This document shows, piece by piece, positions 6,646 through 33,564 of a DNA stretch of 43,053 nucleotides; the first letter of the stretch is position 1; every line of letters begins with the position of its first letter. A program made the translations under genes and the position numbers. Below the pieces are notes generated by a model. It did not search any database, had not been told where the DNA came from, and worked only from the letters and a program-made list of their open reading frames with translations. Origin of the DNA: Eubacteriales bacterium (lineage in GTDB: Bacteria; Bacillota; Clostridia; Oscillospirales; CAG-272); NCBI GenBank assembly GCA_045580065.1, contig JAZNNA010000020.1, forward strand, positions 1-43,053. The letters run 5' to 3'.

Positions 6646-7254
6646 TCACACCCCAAGCGTTTCAATAAAGCGGCAAACCTCAAGGGAAAGGGGCTGAATA
6701 TCCCGGTAATTGTTTTCGATCACGGCATCACAGCGCTCCTTGAAAAAAGCATTATCATGCTGTGCCGCAAGCCTGCGGCGTGCCGTTTGCTCATCGATCC
6801 CATCACGCTCGATAATGCGCTGCACGCAGACGTCGTCCTCTGCAATGATGCCAAGAACAACGTCACACAAACGATCGGCACCGGCCTCAAACAGCTGCGG
6901 TGCGTCAAACACAACCGCCGAAGCACCTTTTTTGCCGTACTCCAGCAGCAGCTCCTTAACGTTTGCCATAATATATTTATGGGTGATCCCGTTCAAAGTA
7001 TGCAAGGCGGATTGTACATCCTCGCTTGCAAACACGGCACGGCTCAACGCCTTGCGGTCCACGCCGCCGTTTTCGGCCGCGATCCCGCATCCAAAGGCCG
7101 AGATCAGCTCGCTTGTGCAGGCGTTGCTTTCCTGCAGCATTTCGTGATACACACGATCGGCATCGATCACGGGAAAGCCGTGCTTTTTAAAAATGCTGCA
7201 AACGGCACCCTTGCCGGCACCGCTTTTACCGGTAAGGCCGATCAGGCGCGTCAT
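6646..7254 (-). CDS. coaE: Dephospho-CoA kinase
   Basis: IGLTGKSGAGK P-loop, IDAD, DAPQLFE; ATG at 7254 overlaps upstream stop (ATGA), RBS GGAGA. Confidence 0.93.
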   Translation of the reverse strand: MTRLIGLTGKSGAGKGAVCSIFKKHGFPVIDADRVYHEMLQESNACTSELISAFGCGIAAENGGVDRKALSRAVFASEDVQSALHTLNGITHKYIMANVKELLLEYGKKGASAVVFDAPQLFEAGADRLCDVVLGIIAEDDVCVQRIIERDGIDEQTARRRLAAQHDNAFFKERCDAVIENNYRDIQPLSLEVCRFIETLGV

Positions 7255-8387
7255 ATCTCCACCTCGCACCCGCACTCATCTGAGCGCAGCGCGGCTTCCA
7301 TCACACGTTGCACGTATGCGGCATGCGCAAAGGTGGGGGAATTTTGCTTTTCTTCGTAAACGGCATTTAAGAAATGATACATGCTCATCACGTGGCCGCG
7401 CAGCCAACCGGTGGCAGCCTTAGGGGAAGGGAACGCACCTGCAGGGGCAGGGTAGCGCCCCACGCACTCGATCCTGGTAAAGCCTGCAAGCCCACCGTAA
7501 GGAGCGTTTTGCACCGTAGCATCATAAAATTCAAGGTAGTTGGGGTCCATCAGCGAAAAGCGCAGTGCGCCCTTGCTGCCGTAGATCTGAAAATGCAGAT
7601 CGTCGTTACAGCCGGTAGAAAGCTTGCTTGAGGTAATGGTGCCCACGGCGCCGTTTTCCGCCCTTGCGGTGATATAAAACGCTTCCGGCGCATCGGTTAC
7701 CCAAGGGGAACCGTCACTGCCTGCACGGGTGGGATATGCGATCTGTGCCTTGCCGGTAACGCTTTTCAGCTTGCCGCAAAGCAGCACGGCAAGATCAATG
7801 ATATGCGCACCAAGGTCAAAAAGCACGCCGCCTCTGCCGCAAACGGCGGCAGTCTGCTTCCAACCTGCCTTTCGCTGCGGATCCACGCAGGAATTGTGCA
7901 GATAATCAAAGTGGAAGGAAAGGATATTGCCAAGCCTTCCCTCGTCGATCAGCTGCTTTGCACGCTGCACAGCGGCAAGGTGGCGGTTGTTAAAAACGAC
8001 CGTACAGATCCTGCCGGAGTTGTTTGCAAGCAGCGCCATTTCCTCAGCGGCGGCAAGGGTATCAGCCAGGGGCTTTTCGCAATATACGTGCTTTCCCGCC
8101 GCAAGCGCCGCCTTGGCGGTTTCCAGGTGGCAAATGTTCGGGGTGCAGATGTCGATCACGTCCACGTCGGAGGCGATCAGCTCAGCCTCGCTTGCAAAGG
8201 CGTTTTGTGCGCCAATGTCACTTGCCACGGCAGCGGATTTTTCAAGGCTGCGTGTAACAACGCCCGTGACCTTGGCGGTAAAGGGGAGATCCCCAAAAAA
8301 GAAGGGAAGCGCCGATACGGCATATGCGTGTGTTTTTCCCATAAAGCCGTAACCGACAAGCCCGATTTTGATCTCTTTCTTTTGCAT
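7251..8387 (-). CDS. Gfo/Idh/MocA family NAD(P)-dependent oxidoreductase
   Basis: Start trimmed to ATG 8387 (MQKKEIKIGLVGYGFMG); CEKPLA, GGVLFDLGAHIID motifs. Confidence 0.92.
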   Translation of the reverse strand: MQKKEIKIGLVGYGFMGKTHAYAVSALPFFFGDLPFTAKVTGVVTRSLEKSAAVASDIGAQNAFASEAELIASDVDVIDICTPNICHLETAKAALAAGKHVYCEKPLADTLAAAEEMALLANNSGRICTVVFNNRHLAAVQRAKQLIDEGRLGNILSFHFDYLHNSCVDPQRKAGWKQTAAVCGRGGVLFDLGAHIIDLAVLLCGKLKSVTGKAQIAYPTRAGSDGSPWVTDAPEAFYITARAENGAVGTITSSKLSTGCNDDLHFQIYGSKGALRFSLMDPNYLEFYDATVQNAPYGGLAGFTRIECVGRYPAPAGAFPSPKAATGWLRGHVMSMYHFLNAVYEEKQNSPTFAHAAYVQRVMEAALRSDECGCEVEI

Positions 8388-28756: not shown

Positions 28757-29392
28757 ATGGGCTTTGGACTTTTACTGATCGGATATTTCTTTGTGTCGGT
28801 CGTATCGCTGTATTCCCCCTTTTCCTTTGCCATGCTGATCGGCTATCCCTTGATGATCACGGGGCTGTGGCGCCTGGCGCCCTATCAGCGGAACTTCCGC
28901 ACGGCATTTTATCTCTCGCCGCTTTCCTTGCCCTTTGCGCTCTACTATGCATTTTTCTCTATGGAGCAATGGGGGCTGATCCGCCTTTCCATCCTCTCCG
29001 GCAGCTTTTACCAGACCGTGGAATGGCTCTATTTCGTCTTTGTACTGCTTTTCACAGCGCTTTGGCTTTACGGCATCCTTTCTCTTTGCCGCGAGCTGGA
29101 GCTTTTAAAGCTGCAATCGCCGGCGGTACGTGCTCTGTTTTTGTTTTTGGCAATGTACGTGCTGGATCTGATCTCCCGCCTACCCATCGCCTTTATCACA
29201 GAGCACCGCGCCGTGCTGGCGGTCCCGGTTCTTTTCATGCGACTTTTGATCATCTTTTTGATCCTGTACCTGCTTTACGGCTGCTACCGCTACATCGCCC
29301 CGGAGGATGAGGCACCTACCGACTATTCCGACCCGACCGAAAAGGCATTTGAATTTTTGAAAAACAAAAAGAAAGGGGGAAATAAAAAATGA
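28757..29392 (+). CDS. Hypothetical polytopic membrane protein
   Basis: About 6 hydrophobic segments; RBS GGAGG; stop overlaps next start. Confidence 0.8.
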   Translation: MGFGLLLIGYFFVSVVSLYSPFSFAMLIGYPLMITGLWRLAPYQRNFRTAFYLSPLSLPFALYYAFFSMEQWGLIRLSILSGSFYQTVEWLYFVFVLLFTALWLYGILSLCRELELLKLQSPAVRALFLFLAMYVLDLISRLPIAFITEHRAVLAVPVLFMRLLIIFLILYLLYGCYRYIAPEDEAPTDYSDPTEKAFEFLKNKKKGGNKK

Positions 29393-30807
29393 ACGAGCCG
29401 TATACCGAAACCAGAAAAAGGATCGGCTTTGGCGCGATCCTTGCCGGACTTTTCCTGTTTTTTAACCCTTACTTTGCCGTGTTTGACGTGCTGCCAGACT
29501 GGATCGGCTCTCTGATCCTTTTTCTGGCCCTGGCCAAATTTGCGCACATCGACCGCCGTATGGCGCAGGCGCGCGATGCCTTTTTAAAGCTGCTGGTCTT
29601 TTACCTTTGCAGAGATGCGGGCGTACTGATCGTATTTGGTATGTGCACCGAGGCAGAGCGCCCCACCGCACTTCTTGCCCTTGGGTTTGTAGGTGCTGTG
29701 CTTGGGCTGTACTTTGCTTTTTCCGCCTTTTCCAAGCTGTTTGAGGGCTTTTATTCGCTTGCGGTCAAATATGAGGCAAGCTCGCTTTACGGCACGTGCA
29801 AGACAGGGAACAGCGGCAAGGAATTTTGCCGCACCGAGCTTGCGCTGCGCGCCACCCGCATCTTTTTGGTGATCCGCGAGGTATTTGGCGTTTTGCCCGA
29901 GTTCTCCTCGCTCACGCTTTCCGATTATACCGACTCCGGCCTGATCCGCATCTACGATCATATCGGTGTGATGCGCGCCATGGCGTTTATCGTGGTGCTG
30001 TTTGCGGGCGTGATCTGGTATATCTCGATCTGCCGCTTTTTTGCACACGCCAAGGAGCAGCAGGACTTTTTGACCGAGCTTGGCAGAGCAGAGGAGCGCT
30101 ATCGCCAAACTCATCCCGGCAACGCGATCACGCGCCGCTATACCAAGGTCTTTATCCTTCTTTCGATCGGCGCATTTTTACTGGCGGATTTTTACCTTGA
30201 TTTTCAAAATATCCTGCCCGATCCGCTGGCTGCCGTTTTTCTGCTTGTCGGCATGCTTATCACCGATCTTTCCCACCGAGAAAAGCTTGCTTGCACGGCA
30301 GCTTGTGCGCTTTACGGCGTGGTCAGCGTTTTCTCAGCCCGCTATACGCTTGCCTTTGTGCAAAATTACATCGGGGCACAGATCTCCAAAAATGCCGAAG
30401 CGGCAGACGCTTACTTTACGATGTGGATCTGGTCACTTGTGGAAATGCTTGTGTTTTTACTGCTGCTGGCCGCTTTGCTGCTGGCTCTGCGCAAGATCAT
30501 TTCCAAATGGGCGGGGTACGTGGCAGAGTATGCCGATACTGCCTTTGAGCAGCGCCGCCGCCGCGCCTTTCTTGCAGATTTTGATGCCAAGCTGATCCGC
30601 ACGTTCGGCATCGGCTTTCTCAGCGCTCTTGCGTCATTTCTTTACGATTACGTCAAGGAAATTCCAAACAAGGGCATTTTCCACGTGATGGAATTTTTCT
30701 GGGCCGTGGACCTTTTGCTTGCCGTATTTTTTGCCGTGTCCTTTGCCGCGCTGCTTGGCAGCATCCGCGCGCAGATCAAAAACCGCTTTGCGCTGGAGGA
30801 GGACTGA
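29389..30807 (+). CDS. Hypothetical polytopic membrane protein with internal duplication
   Basis: Many TM segments; DVLPDWIG and NILPDPLA open the two halves. Confidence 0.8.
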   Translation: MNEPYTETRKRIGFGAILAGLFLFFNPYFAVFDVLPDWIGSLILFLALAKFAHIDRRMAQARDAFLKLLVFYLCRDAGVLIVFGMCTEAERPTALLALGFVGAVLGLYFAFSAFSKLFEGFYSLAVKYEASSLYGTCKTGNSGKEFCRTELALRATRIFLVIREVFGVLPEFSSLTLSDYTDSGLIRIYDHIGVMRAMAFIVVLFAGVIWYISICRFFAHAKEQQDFLTELGRAEERYRQTHPGNAITRRYTKVFILLSIGAFLLADFYLDFQNILPDPLAAVFLLVGMLITDLSHREKLACTAACALYGVVSVFSARYTLAFVQNYIGAQISKNAEAADAYFTMWIWSLVEMLVFLLLLAALLLALRKIISKWAGYVAEYADTAFEQRRRRAFLADFDAKLIRTFGIGFLSALASFLYDYVKEIPNKGIFHVMEFFWAVDLLLAVFFAVSFAALLGSIRAQIKNRFALEED

Positions 30808-30834
30808 ATAGCTTTGCACTTTTTACGCACACTA
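30805..30834 (+). promoter_or_regulatory. sigma-G-type forespore promoter
   Basis: TGAATA-17 bp-CACACTA versus classical sigma-G consensus TGAATA-N17/18-CATACTA (1 mismatch). Confidence 0.7.
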
Positions 30835-30884
30835 AGGGTTAGCAAGCAACCGCTTGCCATCAAGTGCTTGTAAGGAGAGATACG

Positions 30885-31028
30885 ATGCAAAACCAAAACC
30901 AAAACCAAAACCAAAATCAGAACCAAAACCAAAAGCAAAACCAGCAGCAAAACAACCAGAACCAGAATAAGCAAAACAATCAAAATCAAAGCAAGAACAA
31001 GGCCGAAAATAAAAATCAGAGCAAATAA
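30885..31028 (+). CDS. 47-aa Gln/Asn-rich microprotein (not in ORF track)
   Basis: AAGGAG RBS then ATG; MQNQNQNQNQNQNQNQKQNQQQNNQNQNKQNNQNQSKNKAENKNQSK*; synonymous CAA/CAG and AAC/AAT mixing; flanked by promoter and terminator. Confidence 0.8.
   Translation: MQNQNQNQNQNQNQNQKQNQQQNNQNQNKQNNQNQSKNKAENKNQSK
30888..30941 (+). repeat. CAAAAC hexamer tandem repeat encoding (QN)n
   Basis: Four perfect CAAAAC units (30888-30911), then variants CAAAAT, CAGAAC, CAAAAC, CAAAAG, CAAAAC. Confidence 0.85.
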
Positions 31029-31041
31029 TTTCCTTTTTGGG

Positions 31042-31073
31042 AAAAGAGGCGGAAAAATTCCGCCTCTTTTTTT
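31042..31073 (+). terminator. Rho-independent terminator of the Q/N microprotein gene
   Basis: AAAAGAGGCGGAA-AAA-TTCCGCCTCTTTT plus further T's. Confidence 0.85.
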
Positions 31074-31081
31074 CTTTTTCG

Positions 31082-31110
31082 TTGCAATTCAAGAAAAAAT
31101 ATTGTATAAT
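31082..31110 (+). promoter_or_regulatory. sigma-A promoter of pcrA
   Basis: TTGCAA-17 bp-TATAAT. Confidence 0.8.
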
Positions 31111-31140
31111 AGAGATATAAAGTATAAAACGAGGTTTCAA

Positions 31141-33564
31141 ATGACTGAGCTTTCCACACGTTATCTTGCCGCCAAGCGCGCGCTGTTCGACCGTTATTTT
31201 TCAACGCTGAACGAATGCCAGCGCGAGGCTGTTTATCATATCAAAAACCCCTTGCTGATCCTGGCAGGCGCAGGGAGCGGCAAAACCACCGTTCTGGTGC
31301 GCCGCATTGCGTACATCATCCGCTTTGGCAACGCCTATCACAGCGATTACGTGCCCTTTGACCTTTCCGAGCGGCAGGTGCAGATCCTTGAAGCGGGCGT
31401 GCGCGCCCCCCTCACCAAGGGCGAGCTTGAGGGGCTGCTTTCGCAGTTTGCCACCTCTCCCGCACAGCCCTGGCAGATCCTTGCCATCACCTTTACCAAC
31501 AAGGCCGCCAACGAAATGAAAACGCGTCTTGGAGCTGCATTCCCGGAGGATGAAACGCTGCCAAGCTCCATTTGGGCGGGCACCTTCCACTCGATCTGCA
31601 TGCGCATCCTGCGCCGCTTTTACGCCGAGGCAGGCCTTGGCGAGGGCTTTACCGTTTACGACACCGACGACTCGAAAAAGGCGCTCCAGGCGGTTTTAAA
31701 ATCCCTGAATATCGACGATAAGATCCTGCCCGTCAAAACTGCGATGAACGCTATCAGCCGCGCAAAGGATCGCTTGCTCACGCCGGAAAATTTTCTGCTG
31801 GAAATGGGCAACGATTATCGCATGAAGCTGCTGGAAAAGGTATTTATCGCCTATCAGCAGCGCCTTGCCGACTCCAACGCCCTGGATTTTGACGATATCA
31901 TCTGCCGCACCGTTAAGCTCCTGCAGGAAAACGAAAGCGTGCGCACACTGTATCAAAACCAGTTCCGCTACGTTTGCGTGGACGAGTATCAGGATACCAA
32001 CGAGGCACAGTTCCACCTGACCGCCCTGCTTTCCGGTGGCTCGCGCAATCTGATGGTGGTGGGCGACGACGACCAGAGTATTTATAAGTTCCGCGGCGCC
32101 ACCATTGAGAATATCCGCAACTTTACCAAGGTGTTCCAAAATGCCACCATTATCCGGCTGGAGCAGAATTACCGCTCTACACAGTCTATCCTGGATGCGG
32201 CCAACGCCGTGATCTCTCACAACACGAAGGCGGAAAATATGCGCAAGGAGCTGTGGTCTGACCGTGGTCAGGGCAAAAAGATCCGTGTGCTCAACCCCGA
32301 AAACCAAAACACCGAGGCACGCGCCATCATCGATATCGTGCAAAAGGGCGTTTCCGAGGGGAACAAATACCGCGACTATGCCGTGCTGTTTCGTGCCAAC
32401 GCGCAATCCAACGCGCTTGAAACAGCATTTGCACGCAGCGGCGTGCCTTACCGTATGCTGGGTGGCATCCGCTTTTCCGATCGCAAGGAGATCCGCGATA
32501 TCGTGGCCTATCTGCAGCTGATCGACAACCACGCGGACAAGGAGCGCCTTTTGCGCATCGTCAACGAGCCGCGCCGCGGCCTTGGCGACAAAACGCTTGC
32601 CGCGATCGAGGAAATCGCCACGGGCGAGGGAAGATCTATGTTTGCCGTGATGGAAAATGCGGAGAATTATCTTGCCTTAAAGCGCAGCGCCAAGACTCTG
32701 ACCGAGTTCACAGGTCTGATCAACGACCTGACCGAGAGATTGAAGGAGTTGCCGCTTGACGCCTTTGTTGAGGAGGTTCTGGAGCGCACCGGCTACCGCC
32801 AGATGATCGTTGATATGGGCGAGGAGGAGGCCGAGCGCCTTGACAACCTGCAGGAATTTATTTCAAACATCATCGAGTATCAACAGACCGCCGAGGATCC
32901 GACCCTGACCGAATTTTTGGAGGTAACGGCGCTTGTTGCCGACGTAGACCGCTACGACGACACCGCCGATGCCGTGGTGCTGATGACGATCCACAGTGCC
33001 AAGGGGCTGGAGTTCCCGCGCGTGTTCCTGCCCGGATTTGAGGAAGGGCTTTTCCCAAGCATGCAGACCGTGCTTGGGGGAGAGGAGGAGATCGAGGAGG
33101 AGCGCCGCCTTGCCTACGTGGCTATTACGCGTGCAAAGGACGAGCTGTATATCCTGCACGCCAAAAGCCGTATGCTCTACGGCCGTACTGCGCCCAATCC
33201 CGCCTCTCGTTTTCTCGGGGAAATCCCCGAGGAGCTGCTTGACCGCCCCAAGCCTCAGCAGCCCACCTACAATACCTACGGCGGCTACCGCAGCGCCACC
33301 GTTCCTACGGGCGAGCGCTACGCCCCCTCGCGCTATCAGAACTCCGCCGCAACCGAGCGGGCAAGCGTGGGGCAGCGCCCCCAGAGATCGGCCGTACCAC
33401 GCAAGACCTTTGCTGCGGGCGACCGCGTCAAGCACGCCGTTTTTGGCGAGGGAACCGTGCTTTCGGTGCAAAAGATCGCCGCGGATACGCTCTACGAGAT
33501 CGCCTTTGACAAGGTGGGCACCAAAAAGCTGATGGCGACCTACGCCAAGCTGGAAAATGCCTAA
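31141..33564 (+). CDS. pcrA: ATP-dependent DNA helicase PcrA/UvrD
   Basis: LAGAGSGKT, AITFTNKAA, VDEYQDTN, VGDDDQSIYKFRGA, LEQNYRS, MTIHSAKGLEF, EERRLAYVAITRA, C-terminal Tudor-like domain; ATG 31141 after GAGGT. Confidence 0.96.
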   Translation: MTELSTRYLAAKRALFDRYFSTLNECQREAVYHIKNPLLILAGAGSGKTTVLVRRIAYIIRFGNAYHSDYVPFDLSERQVQILEAGVRAPLTKGELEGLLSQFATSPAQPWQILAITFTNKAANEMKTRLGAAFPEDETLPSSIWAGTFHSICMRILRRFYAEAGLGEGFTVYDTDDSKKALQAVLKSLNIDDKILPVKTAMNAISRAKDRLLTPENFLLEMGNDYRMKLLEKVFIAYQQRLADSNALDFDDIICRTVKLLQENESVRTLYQNQFRYVCVDEYQDTNEAQFHLTALLSGGSRNLMVVGDDDQSIYKFRGATIENIRNFTKVFQNATIIRLEQNYRSTQSILDAANAVISHNTKAENMRKELWSDRGQGKKIRVLNPENQNTEARAIIDIVQKGVSEGNKYRDYAVLFRANAQSNALETAFARSGVPYRMLGGIRFSDRKEIRDIVAYLQLIDNHADKERLLRIVNEPRRGLGDKTLAAIEEIATGEGRSMFAVMENAENYLALKRSAKTLTEFTGLINDLTERLKELPLDAFVEEVLERTGYRQMIVDMGEEEAERLDNLQEFISNIIEYQQTAEDPTLTEFLEVTALVADVDRYDDTADAVVLMTIHSAKGLEFPRVFLPGFEEGLFPSMQTVLGGEEEIEEERRLAYVAITRAKDELYILHAKSRMLYGRTAPNPASRFLGEIPEELLDRPKPQQPTYNTYGGYRSATVPTGERYAPSRYQNSAATERASVGQRPQRSAVPRKTFAAGDRVKHAVFGEGTVLSVQKIAADTLYEIAFDKVGTKKLMATYAKLENA

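What the first reader, a model, noticed from the sequence alone, without database searches (positions are those of the whole stretch)
30805..31073. Self-contained sigma-G unit encoding a 47-aa, 77% Gln/Asn microprotein: candidate clostridial gamma-SASP analogue
Seen: the apparent intergenic microsatellite is a complete gene. It has TGAATA-N17-CACACTA, a leader, an AAGGAG RBS, a 47-codon ORF (18 Q, 18 N, 6 K, 2 S, 1 A, 1 E, 1 M; no aromatic or large aliphatic residues) and a strong terminator. Synonymous CAA/CAG and AAC/AAT mixing suggests selection on the protein rather than pure slippage. Known: TGAATA-N17/18-CATACTA is the B. subtilis sigma-G consensus. Gamma-type SASPs (SspE) are sigma-G-dependent, monocistronic, Q/N-rich amino-acid reserves of the spore core and are generally reported absent from Clostridia. 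Inference: this may be a non-homologous nitrogen-storage spore protein that gene callers miss because it is short and low-complexity.
Basis: partly seen in the sequence, partly recalled or inferred. Interest (0 to 1): 0.82.

Follow-up and report, generated by a model that had tools for sequence, protein, structure and literature searches.

The report
Hidden Gln/Asn-rich spore microprotein gene
What looks like a simple DNA repeat in front of the pcrA helicase gene is a small conserved gene, absent from the predicted-protein collection checked here, whose product is made almost entirely of glutamine and asparagine and is probably produced inside the developing spore of uncultured gut Clostridia.

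Summary
Window 30805-31073 holds TGAATA-N17-CACACTA, AAGGAG, an ATG ORF at 30885-31028 (47 aa; 18 Q, 18 N, 6 K) and a -22 kcal/mol terminator.

The unit is conserved. A same-strand Q/N-rich ORF lies before pcrA in 19 of 24 same-genus loci, where PcrA is only 65-77% identical. The exact motif GAATA-N17/18-CAYACTA occurs in 14 of those 19, and only once in the whole 2.14-Mb genome. Stand-alone Q/N microgenes also occur in 9 other genera of the family, often away from pcrA, and in 3 other Clostridia families.

The genome has an alpha/beta SASP, GPR, a SigG-like sigma, SpoVT, SpoVA and SpoIVB. None of 6 Q/N peptides is in a 15-billion-protein collection, and Pfam and NCBIfam give no hit.

My reading: a real, unannotated gene with a forespore-type (sigma-G-like) promoter, encoding a small basic Q/N-repeat spore protein. 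The gamma-SASP or nitrogen-reserve role is plausible but untested. There is no homology to any Pfam family, no GPR-type cleavage motif and no expression data. The gene is missing from some sporulation-competent relatives. Several first searches used a wrong frame and were redone.

The parts
30805..30810 (+). -35 element TGAATA of a forespore-type (sigma-G-like) promoter. Its TGA is the stop codon of the upstream 472-aa membrane-protein gene.
   Evidence: It is kept in orthologs even where the upstream stop is a TAA in another register (L017, L026).
30828..30834 (+). -10 element CACACTA, 17 nt after the -35.
   Evidence: The spacer sequence is not conserved, while both elements recur at fixed spacing.
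30841..30884 (+). Inferred 5' leader with RBS AAGGAG at 30872-30877, 7 nt before the ATG. The transcription start is inferred, not mapped.
   Evidence: A GGAG-type RBS is present in all 17 aligned orthologs.
30885..31028 (+). ORF of 47 codons plus TAA: a basic microprotein that is 77% Gln/Asn.
   Evidence: Orthologous Q/N ORFs.
30888..30943 (+). Hexanucleotide (CAAAAC) repeat core inside the ORF. A strain-level length variant is seen in a DNA run.
   Evidence: In one search, record 19 of X2 bridges the repeat with 104 nt where the window has 122 nt.
31039..31073 (+). Intrinsic terminator: G+C-rich stem at about 31044-31068, then a U run.
   Evidence: One search gives -22 kcal/mol and z = -3.3.

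Best explanation
This is a real, monocistronic, unannotated gene.

Inferred mechanism:
- Late in sporulation, RNA polymerase carrying the forespore sigma factor (sigma-G, possibly also sigma-F) starts at TGAATA-N17-CACACTA.
- The short mRNA, with a strong RBS and bounded by a strong terminator, is translated into a 47-aa, basic, extremely hydrophilic Gln/Asn-repeat peptide.
- The peptide accumulates in the spore core as a non-alpha/beta, SASP-like small protein.
- Its most likely use is as a depot of amide-nitrogen amino acids (Gln, Asn) released by proteolysis at germination. A hydrophilic protectant role cannot be separated from this.
- The DNA repeat grows and shrinks by slippage in 6-nt steps, while selection keeps the start, the frame, the composition and the expression signals.

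Shown: the anatomy, its conservation, its uniqueness in the genome, and the sporulation gene set of the host.

Inferred: sigma-factor dependence, translation, location in the spore, and function.
For: 1. Anatomy is complete and exact.
2. Conservation:
- A Q/N-rich ORF sits on the pcrA strand, directly upstream of pcrA, in 19 of 24 same-genus loci including the window's own. PcrA there is 65-77% identical.
- Every one has an ATG behind a GGAG-type RBS and, by eye, a hairpin plus T-run after the stop.
3. Promoter:
- The strict motif GAATA-N17/18-CAYACTA is present in 14 of those 19 loci. It occurs once per locus and always at the expected place.
- It is also present in G240, G241 and 3 MAG loci. 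Overall 23 of 74 loci match; 4 of the 23 are duplicates of other loci.
- The other 5 of the 19 have near-variants by eye, for example TGAATA-N18-CAAACTC and GGTATA-N17/18-GATACTA.
- The same motif occurs once in the whole own genome.
- The sigG-like gene of this genome carries TGAATA-N18-CAATACT.
4. Protein-level constraint:
- Orthologs differ in repeat design (NQ, NNQ, NKNQ) and mix CAA/CAG and AAC/AAT freely, yet the Q/N frame stays pure.
- It stays open although every Gln codon is one C-to-T change from a stop.
- Interruptions are mostly K, R and S, so the peptides stay basic.
5. Autonomy:
- The same kind of unit (forespore-like promoter, RBS, Q/N ORF, terminator) is found in 9 of 15 examined loci from other genera of the family.
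- Three of those 9 keep pcrA synteny and 6 lie in other contexts.
- It is also found in 3 of 5 examined loci from other Clostridia families.
6. Host:
- The own genome has an alpha/beta SASP (92.9 bits), GPR (179 bits), a SigG-like sigma (394 bits), SpoVT-like, SpoVAC and SpoIVB genes.
- GPR is present in 40 of 40 genus genomes.
- SpoIVA is present in 5 of 5 checked genomes; 4 of them carry Q/N genes, and the fifth, G044, had no hit to the Q/N pattern.
7. Style: monocistronic, strong RBS, strong terminator and sigma-G-type promoter is the layout of ssp genes. SASPs are made under sigma-G late in sporulation (passages).
Against: - No transcript, ribosome or peptide evidence exists.
- The sigma-G assignment rests on a consensus from other species. 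In this genome the upstream regions of the alpha/beta SASP, gpr, spoVT, spoVA and spoIVB genes show only partial or unclear matches, so the lineage's own consensus is not calibrated.
- Some relatives (L043, L046) have a -10 that looks more sigma-F-like. L064 and L079 have no clear forespore promoter, and L084 could be read as an extended -10 sigma-A promoter.
- The gene is dispensable. At this locus it is absent in G005, G003 and G012, which keep GPR, and in MAG L070.
- The peptide lacks a GPR-type site (one Glu, no E-I/F-A). One Q/N-positive genome (G139, 92% complete) showed no GPR.
- A 6-nt repeat keeps its frame automatically, so in-frame length variation says nothing about selection. The 2:1 CAA excess in a 55% G+C genome points to slippage homogenisation.
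- In 5 of 19 same-genus loci pcrA has no visible promoter of its own behind the terminator. Transcription must therefore also pass through this unit in growing cells, and expression may not be spore-specific.
Confidence: 0.5

Rival explanations
1. Same gene and same forespore expression, but the peptide is structural or protective rather than a reserve. As a Q/N polar-zipper or gel-forming, prion-like peptide it would help immobilise water and macromolecules in the dehydrated spore core.
For: The composition is extreme (77% Q+N). GerG, an Asn-rich low-complexity spore protein of C. difficile, forms gels in vitro through its repeats, and its repeat number varies between strains (passages). Regularly spaced Lys or Arg is conserved across orthologs, as would be expected if solubility or assembly is tuned.
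Against: GerG is sigma-E (mother-cell) controlled and its repeats are dispensable for function. There are no assembly data here. The peptides are very short and strongly charged. The gene is dispensable in close relatives.
Confidence: 0.2
2. A basic nucleic-acid-binding spore protein. The Lys/Arg-spaced Q/N peptide would coat DNA or RNA in the forespore alongside the alpha/beta SASP.
For: The net charge is about +5 in 47 aa (6 K, 1 E). Most orthologs are basic. SASPs in general bind DNA (passage).
Against: There is no similarity to the alpha/beta SASP family. Some orthologs are nearly neutral, for example L004.
Confidence: 0.1
3. A leader peptide or attenuator. Translation of the Q/N codons would sense Gln/Asn-tRNA supply and control read-through of the terminator into pcrA.
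For: The ORF lies directly upstream of pcrA with a terminator in between. In 5 of 19 same-genus loci, and in L046, L048, L052 and L073, pcrA has no visible promoter of its own.
Against: The distance from stop codon to terminator stem varies from about 15 to more than 120 nt (L011), so a ribosome cannot act on the hairpin in a conserved way. No alternative antiterminator was seen. Most loci have a good TTGCAA-N17-TATAAT promoter for pcrA after the terminator. The same unit occurs away from pcrA in 6 other genera and 3 other families. A forespore-type promoter is not expected for a housekeeping leader.
Confidence: 0.05
4. A neutral coding-looking microsatellite. The A/C-rich hexamer repeat would be a slippage product in an intergenic region, and the ORF, RBS and promoter matches would be fortuitous or relics.
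For: The period-6 repeat gives open frames on all six frames. There is length variation between strains. CAA is in excess. The unit is absent from several close relatives. It is not called by gene finders.
Against: ATG, RBS, promoter elements and terminator are kept together across species whose PcrA is only 65-77% identical. The repeat DNA itself is not conserved, while the Q/N reading is. The strict promoter motif is unique in the genome. Independent genomic contexts keep the same anatomy.
Confidence: 0.07

Closest known systems
Gamma-type SASP (SspE) of Bacillales
   Same: Small, hydrophilic and Q/N-rich (recalled for SspE). The gene is monocistronic with a sigma-G-type promoter. SspE is hypothesised to be an amino-acid reservoir for outgrowth (passage). 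That family is reported absent from Clostridia (passages), so this could be a functional analogue.
   Different: No sequence similarity: 0 Pfam and 0 NCBIfam families at E<=10. About 77% Q+N in near-perfect dipeptide repeats. No GPR-type cleavage motif. Half the length or less. Length and repeat design change between species.
Minor SASPs and Tlp of Bacillus (SspG-SspP); SspH, SspI and Tlp in some clostridia
   Same: Very small proteins linked to sigma-G, lineage-restricted, individually dispensable and patchily distributed (passages).
   Different: Those families have ordinary, alignable sequences and curated models. This one is a low-complexity repeat with no model and is not in the protein collection.
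Alpha/beta-type SASP (Pfam PF00269)
   Same: Expected forespore expression, small size and basic character. A true member is present in the same genome.
   Different: No match to PF00269. No conserved DNA-binding helices and no EIA-type GPR site (passage).
GerG of Clostridioides difficile
   Same: A clostridial sporulation protein with an Asn-rich low-complexity repeat whose copy number varies between strains. It forms gels in vitro and scores as prion-like (passages).
   Different: GerG is sigma-E (mother-cell) controlled, much longer, about 30% Asn with Met/Pro/Ser, and has non-repeat parts that carry its function. The present peptide is nearly all repeat, and its promoter is forespore-type.
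Q/N-rich prion-like domains of bacterial proteins (e.g. Clostridium botulinum Rho)
   Same: Q/N-rich composition in a clostridial protein (title and abstract only, listing).
   Different: Those are domains of large housekeeping proteins, not stand-alone 40-70-aa peptides with sporulation promoters.

Membership tests
Gamma-type SASP (SspE) | Sequence homology to the SspE family model | tested here: not met
   hmmscan of 4 Q/N peptides against all of Pfam-A and NCBIfam at E<=10 gave 0 families.
Gamma-type SASP (SspE) | Cleavage site(s) for the germination protease GPR (an E-I/F-A-type motif; 'EIA' for SASPs in the passage, the gamma-type site is recalled) | tested here: not met
   The window peptide has a single Glu in ...KAENK.... 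No E-I/F-A is present in it or in the orthologs printed.
Gamma-type SASP (SspE) | Sigma-G-dependent transcription in the forespore | tested here: inconclusive
   A consensus-type promoter is present and conserved, but there are no expression data. RNA contigs did not cover the ORF.
Gamma-type SASP (SspE) | Abundant in dormant spores and degraded during germination | not testable with these tools
   This needs spore extracts or proteomics of a carrier organism.
Alpha/beta-type SASP (PF00269) | Match to the PF00269 model | tested here: not met
   One search gave 0 families. The genome's real member scores 92.9 bits.
Forespore (sigma-G/sigma-F) regulon | -35 GnATA / TGAATA and -10 CATnnTA at 17-18 nt spacing upstream of the gene (B. 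subtilis consensus recalled; similarity of the C. difficile consensus) | tested here: met
   TGAATA-N17-CACACTA. It is unique in the genome and conserved in 14 of 19 same-genus orthologs, with near-variants in the rest. No GG lies upstream of the -10, which fits sigma-G better than sigma-F.
Forespore (sigma-G/sigma-F) regulon | Loss of expression in sigG or sigF mutants | not testable with these tools
   The organism is uncultured. Relatives are MAGs titled Oscillospiraceae, Clostridia or Eubacteriales bacterium.
Transcription-attenuation leader peptides | Fixed geometry between the leader stop codon and alternative terminator/antiterminator hairpins, with the regulated gene downstream | tested here: not met
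   The stop-to-terminator distance varies from about 15 to more than 120 nt. The unit also occurs away from pcrA.

The most novel reading that the evidence does not exclude
These Q/N-repeat microgenes would be a previously unseen class of forespore-made spore-core proteins of Clostridia, invisible to gene callers and to homology search. They would fill the gap left by the missing gamma-type SASP. The peptide would act as a self-assembling polar-zipper or gel matrix that both stores amide nitrogen and helps vitrify the core. Its length would be tuned rapidly by hexanucleotide slippage.
Probability: 0.2. Interest if true: 0.85.

Novelty: new variant of a known kind. Interest (0 to 1): 0.62.

Why it matters
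The passages I read from spore-biology papers state that Clostridia lack gamma-type and most minor SASPs. That conclusion rests on homology searches and on annotated proteins. Here a gene with textbook ssp-like signals is conserved across dozens of uncultured gut Oscillospirales species, yet it is absent from a 15-billion-protein collection and undetectable by HMM methods.

If the peptide is in spores, three things follow:
- It would add a new class of spore-core protein.
- It would give a concrete candidate for the amino-acid reserve of clostridial spores.
- It would show that low-complexity microgenes are a systematic blind spot in sporulation gene inventories and in metaproteomic databases for gut spore-formers.

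If it is not expressed, it is still a clear example of a conserved coding microsatellite carrying a sporulation promoter.

Tried and rejected
1. Wrong frame. In (protein 1; protein 1 and the L048 reference) I gave 30886-31026, which is the +1 frame (CKTKT...). Those negative results are void. I found the error and repeated Pfam, NCBIfam and the homolog search with 30885-31025. The whole-genome protein search was not repeated.

2. Homology searches with the right frame:
- Pfam and NCBIfam gave 0 families.
- The search for homologous proteins found 1020 word-sharing candidates but none at E<=0.001. For such a repeat this mostly reflects composition correction, so it is not evidence of uniqueness.
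- The ESM Atlas gave 30 hits at 0.92 to unnamed 35-47-aa 'hypothetical protein' clusters of 61-77 members, with low recognition. This is a lead only.

3. RNA evidence. Two gut metatranscriptome runs (X19, X20) gave contigs only over 30525-30802 and parts of pcrA, and none over the ORF. All runs are contigs and break at the repeat. No conclusion on expression either way.

4. Calibrating the lineage's own forespore promoter. The upstream regions of the alpha/beta SASP, gpr, spoVT, spoVA and spoIVB genes gave only partial or ambiguous matches by eye. Only sigG gave a clean one.

5. Co-occurrence with sporulation:
- GPR is in 40 of 40 genus genomes and in 82 of 101 family genomes.
- Among the 19 GPR-negative genomes of that sample, 1 (G139) has the Q/N pattern. 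Among the 81 GPR-positive genomes other than the own genome, 14 have it, including 2 known false positives.
- The numbers are too small and phylogenetically dependent, so this is uninformative.

6. The pattern (AAYCAR)x4 with up to 1 mismatch is only a proxy. Six of 15 examined other-genus loci were short Q/N runs inside longer proteins or non-coding A/C runs: L040, L042, L049, L050, L066 and L069. At class level many hits are Pro-Glu linkers read in another frame (L088). The counts of 75 of 401 genomes in the family and 16 of 301 in the class are therefore upper bounds for that pattern. They also miss NNQ-type genes. Loci L041, L044, L045, L047, L053-L055, L067, L068, L075-L078, L080, L082, L083, L086, L087 and L090-L094 were fetched but not read.

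7. The attenuator reading was considered and rejected (see rivals).

8. The reverse-strand ORFs over the repeat (113 and 102 aa) were rejected. They are hydrophobic repeat artefacts without conserved starts, and they are not in the protein collection.

9. Not done because the script machine was lost: a genome-wide position-weight scan for forespore promoters, codon and substitution statistics over the orthologs, and a scan of all small Q/N ORFs with the low-complexity filter off.

Vyas et al. 2011 is not held. Supplements (for example the promoter tables of Saujet 2013) were not seen and could bear on the sigma-F versus sigma-G assignment. No structure or complex prediction was run, because a Q/N repeat would not give an informative model.

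11. Literature. Searches found no report of a Q/N-repeat small spore protein. 'NQNQNQ' together with 'sporulation' gave 0 papers. The library lacks most subscription journals.
Full report
**1. What is in the window**

Reading 30500-31400 gives the following order:
- The stop of a 472-aa membrane-protein gene with no Pfam family. Its TGA is the first half of TGAATA at 30805-30810.
- A 17-nt spacer, then CACACTA at 30828-30834.
- A leader of about 43 nt with AAGGAG at 30872-30877.
- ATG at 30885 and an ORF running to TAA at 31026-31028.
- A terminator at 31039-31073, which folds at -22 kcal/mol with z = -3.3.
- A separate sigma-A-type promoter, TTGCAA-N17-TATAAT, at 31082-31110.
- pcrA from 31144, with UvrD-helicase, UvrD_C and PcrA tudor domains.

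The peptide is 47 aa. By my count it has 18 Q, 18 N, 6 K, 2 S, 1 A, 1 E and 1 M. Only the first 56 nt are a clean period-6 repeat.

**2. Is it more than chance?**

In the laid genome (2.14 Mb, 176 contigs) this is the only short ORF of its kind. Two other hits, on contig C98, are longer Q/N/P/Y-rich proteins. The strict motif GAATA-N17/18-CA[TC]ACTA occurs exactly once on both strands, and that occurrence is here.

**3. Conservation in the genus**

PcrA orthologs were found in 41 of 41 relatives. I read the 24 same-genus loci (L001-L023 and L026, own included). Their PcrA is 65-77% identical to the window's.
- A Q/N-rich ORF (at least 50% Q+N in a 25-aa window) lies on the pcrA strand directly upstream in 19 of 24 loci. 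It is found in 0 of 6 loci from other families.
- Of the five without it, L018 has no upstream flank.
- L007, L019 and L020 show the membrane gene running straight into pcrA.
- L015 has a different upstream gene and a different small hydrophilic ORF behind GCATAA...CACACTA.
- All 19 have an ATG behind a GGAG-type RBS and, by eye, a G+C hairpin plus T-run after the stop.
- The strict promoter motif is present in 14 of the 19, once per locus and in the right place. The other five carry near-variants.

In an alignment of 17 such regions the spacer and leader are unconserved, while the ATG and RBS line up. The invariance of the -35 and -10 columns in that alignment is circular, because those loci were chosen by the motif. 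What counts is the 14 of 19.

The -35 is kept even where the upstream stop is a TAA in another register (L017, L026). It is therefore not just a stop codon.

A DNA pattern for four Asn-Gln pairs finds a single locus per genome in 25 of 40 genomes of the genus.

**4. Selection on the protein**

- The repeat DNA is not conserved. Species use NQ, NNQ or NKNQ designs and mix CAA/CAG and AAC/AAT, which scrambles the other two frames but leaves the Q/N frame pure.
- Each Gln codon is one transition from a stop codon, yet frames of 40-70 codons stay open.
- Replacements are mostly K, R and S, so the products stay basic.
- Against over-reading this: a 6-nt unit keeps its frame by itself. A strain-level variant is 18 nt shorter (X2 record 19). 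The CAA excess also shows slippage at work.
- I could not compute substitution statistics because the script machine was lost.

**5. Beyond the genus**

In a sample of the family, 75 of 401 genomes (40 of 97 genera) hit the pattern. I read 15 loci from other genera.
- Nine are stand-alone Q/N microgenes: L043, L046, L048, L051, L052, L056, L063, L064 and L065.
- Six are false positives.
- Eight of the nine have a recognisable forespore-type promoter, such as TGAATA-N18-CATACTT, GTATA-N17/18-CATACTA/T, or TGAATA-N17-AATAATA. L064 does not.
- Three keep the order membrane gene, Q/N gene, pcrA. Six lie elsewhere.

In a class-wide sample, 16 of 301 genomes hit a longer pattern. Of five loci read, three are stand-alone microgenes in three other families (L079, L084, L089) and two are false. 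Their promoters are less clear.

Named relatives of the upstream gene are all uncultured MAGs titled Oscillospiraceae, Clostridia or Eubacteriales bacterium. Two of the three that I read (L072, L073) carry the unit, and L070 lacks it.

**6. Host biology**

- The genome encodes an alpha/beta SASP, GPR, a SigG-like sigma plus three further sporulation-type sigmas, SpoVT-like, SpoVAC and SpoIVB.
- The sigG-like gene has TGAATA-N18-CAATACT upstream.
- The other sporulation genes gave only partial promoter matches by eye.
- GPR is present in 40 of 40 genomes of the genus, including those without the Q/N gene. The gene is therefore dispensable for the sporulation gene set.

**7. Annotation status**

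- Six Q/N peptides, a GTG-start form and the two antisense ORFs are not in the 15-billion-protein collection.
- Pfam and NCBIfam have no model that matches.
- The Atlas shows look-alike unnamed clusters of 35-47 aa. Some pipelines therefore do call such peptides.

**8. Interpretation**

The layout (sigma-G-type promoter, short leader, strong RBS, tiny ORF, strong terminator) is that of ssp genes, and the product is small, basic and acid-soluble in character. I therefore read it as a forespore-expressed, SASP-like microprotein.

The passages I read say that gamma-type SASPs are thought to be amino-acid reservoirs and have not been found in Clostridia. A peptide that is 77% Gln/Asn is a plausible amide-nitrogen depot. 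However, it is not a member of that family: there is no homology and no GPR-type site. A protective or gel role is equally open, with GerG as a precedent.

The attenuator and neutral-repeat readings are unlikely for the reasons given under rivals.

One unexplained point remains. In several species pcrA has no promoter of its own behind the terminator, so vegetative read-through across this unit must occur.

**9. Verdict**

- The reading as a gene is strongly supported.
- A forespore promoter is likely.
- The function is inferred.
- It is a new, homology-invisible variant of the small-spore-protein theme, in uncultured gut Clostridia.

My errors (wrong frame in four calls) and the tools that were lost are listed under Tried and rejected.

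Noticed in passing
window 28757-30807: Two membrane-protein genes (211 aa and 472 aa) without any Pfam family lie between secA and the Q/N gene. The 472-aa gene is syntenic with pcrA across the genus and in MAGs at 38-43% identity.
   Followed up: partly
L006, L010, L012, L013, L014; L046, L048, L052, L073: In these species pcrA starts 20-40 nt after the Q/N gene's terminator with no visible promoter of its own. pcrA must then be transcribed through the Q/N unit and its terminator. How is unexplained.
   Followed up: partly
G000 contig C98, about 6950-7660 on the minus strand: Two longer Q/N/P/Y-repeat proteins (146 and 233 aa open frames, with ...QQNPYQQNPY... and ...GNFYNPNGQ... repeats) lie about 3-4 kb from the second-best sporulation sigma gene (C98:2805-3500).
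   Followed up: no
L015 (G021), upstream of pcrA: The upstream gene is different, and a 40-aa hydrophilic ORF (MGKNQDKQSKQQ...) rich in K/Q/N/D/S with two Cys sits behind GCATAA...CACACTA. It may be a diverged or replaced version of the microgene.
   Followed up: no
G018:C56:66-113 versus L013 (G018 contig C4): G018 has a short 22-aa Q/N ORF before pcrA and a second Asn-Gln repeat at the end of another contig. It may have two copies, or this may be an assembly split.
   Followed up: no
window 30881-31002 in run X2 (record 19): A DNA contig at about 99% identity bridges the repeat with 104 nt where the window has 122 nt. This is an 18-nt (three-hexamer) in-frame length variant between strains.
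   Followed up: partly
L040 and L042 (genus g93): A short QNQNQNQ run lies inside a Lys/Glu-rich stretch of a longer open reading frame. This is a recurrent false positive for the pattern search.
   Followed up: no
G139 and G044 (genus g21): Both genomes (92% complete) have SpoIVA and an alpha/beta SASP, but no GPR match was found. G139 carries a Q/N microgene.
   Followed up: partly
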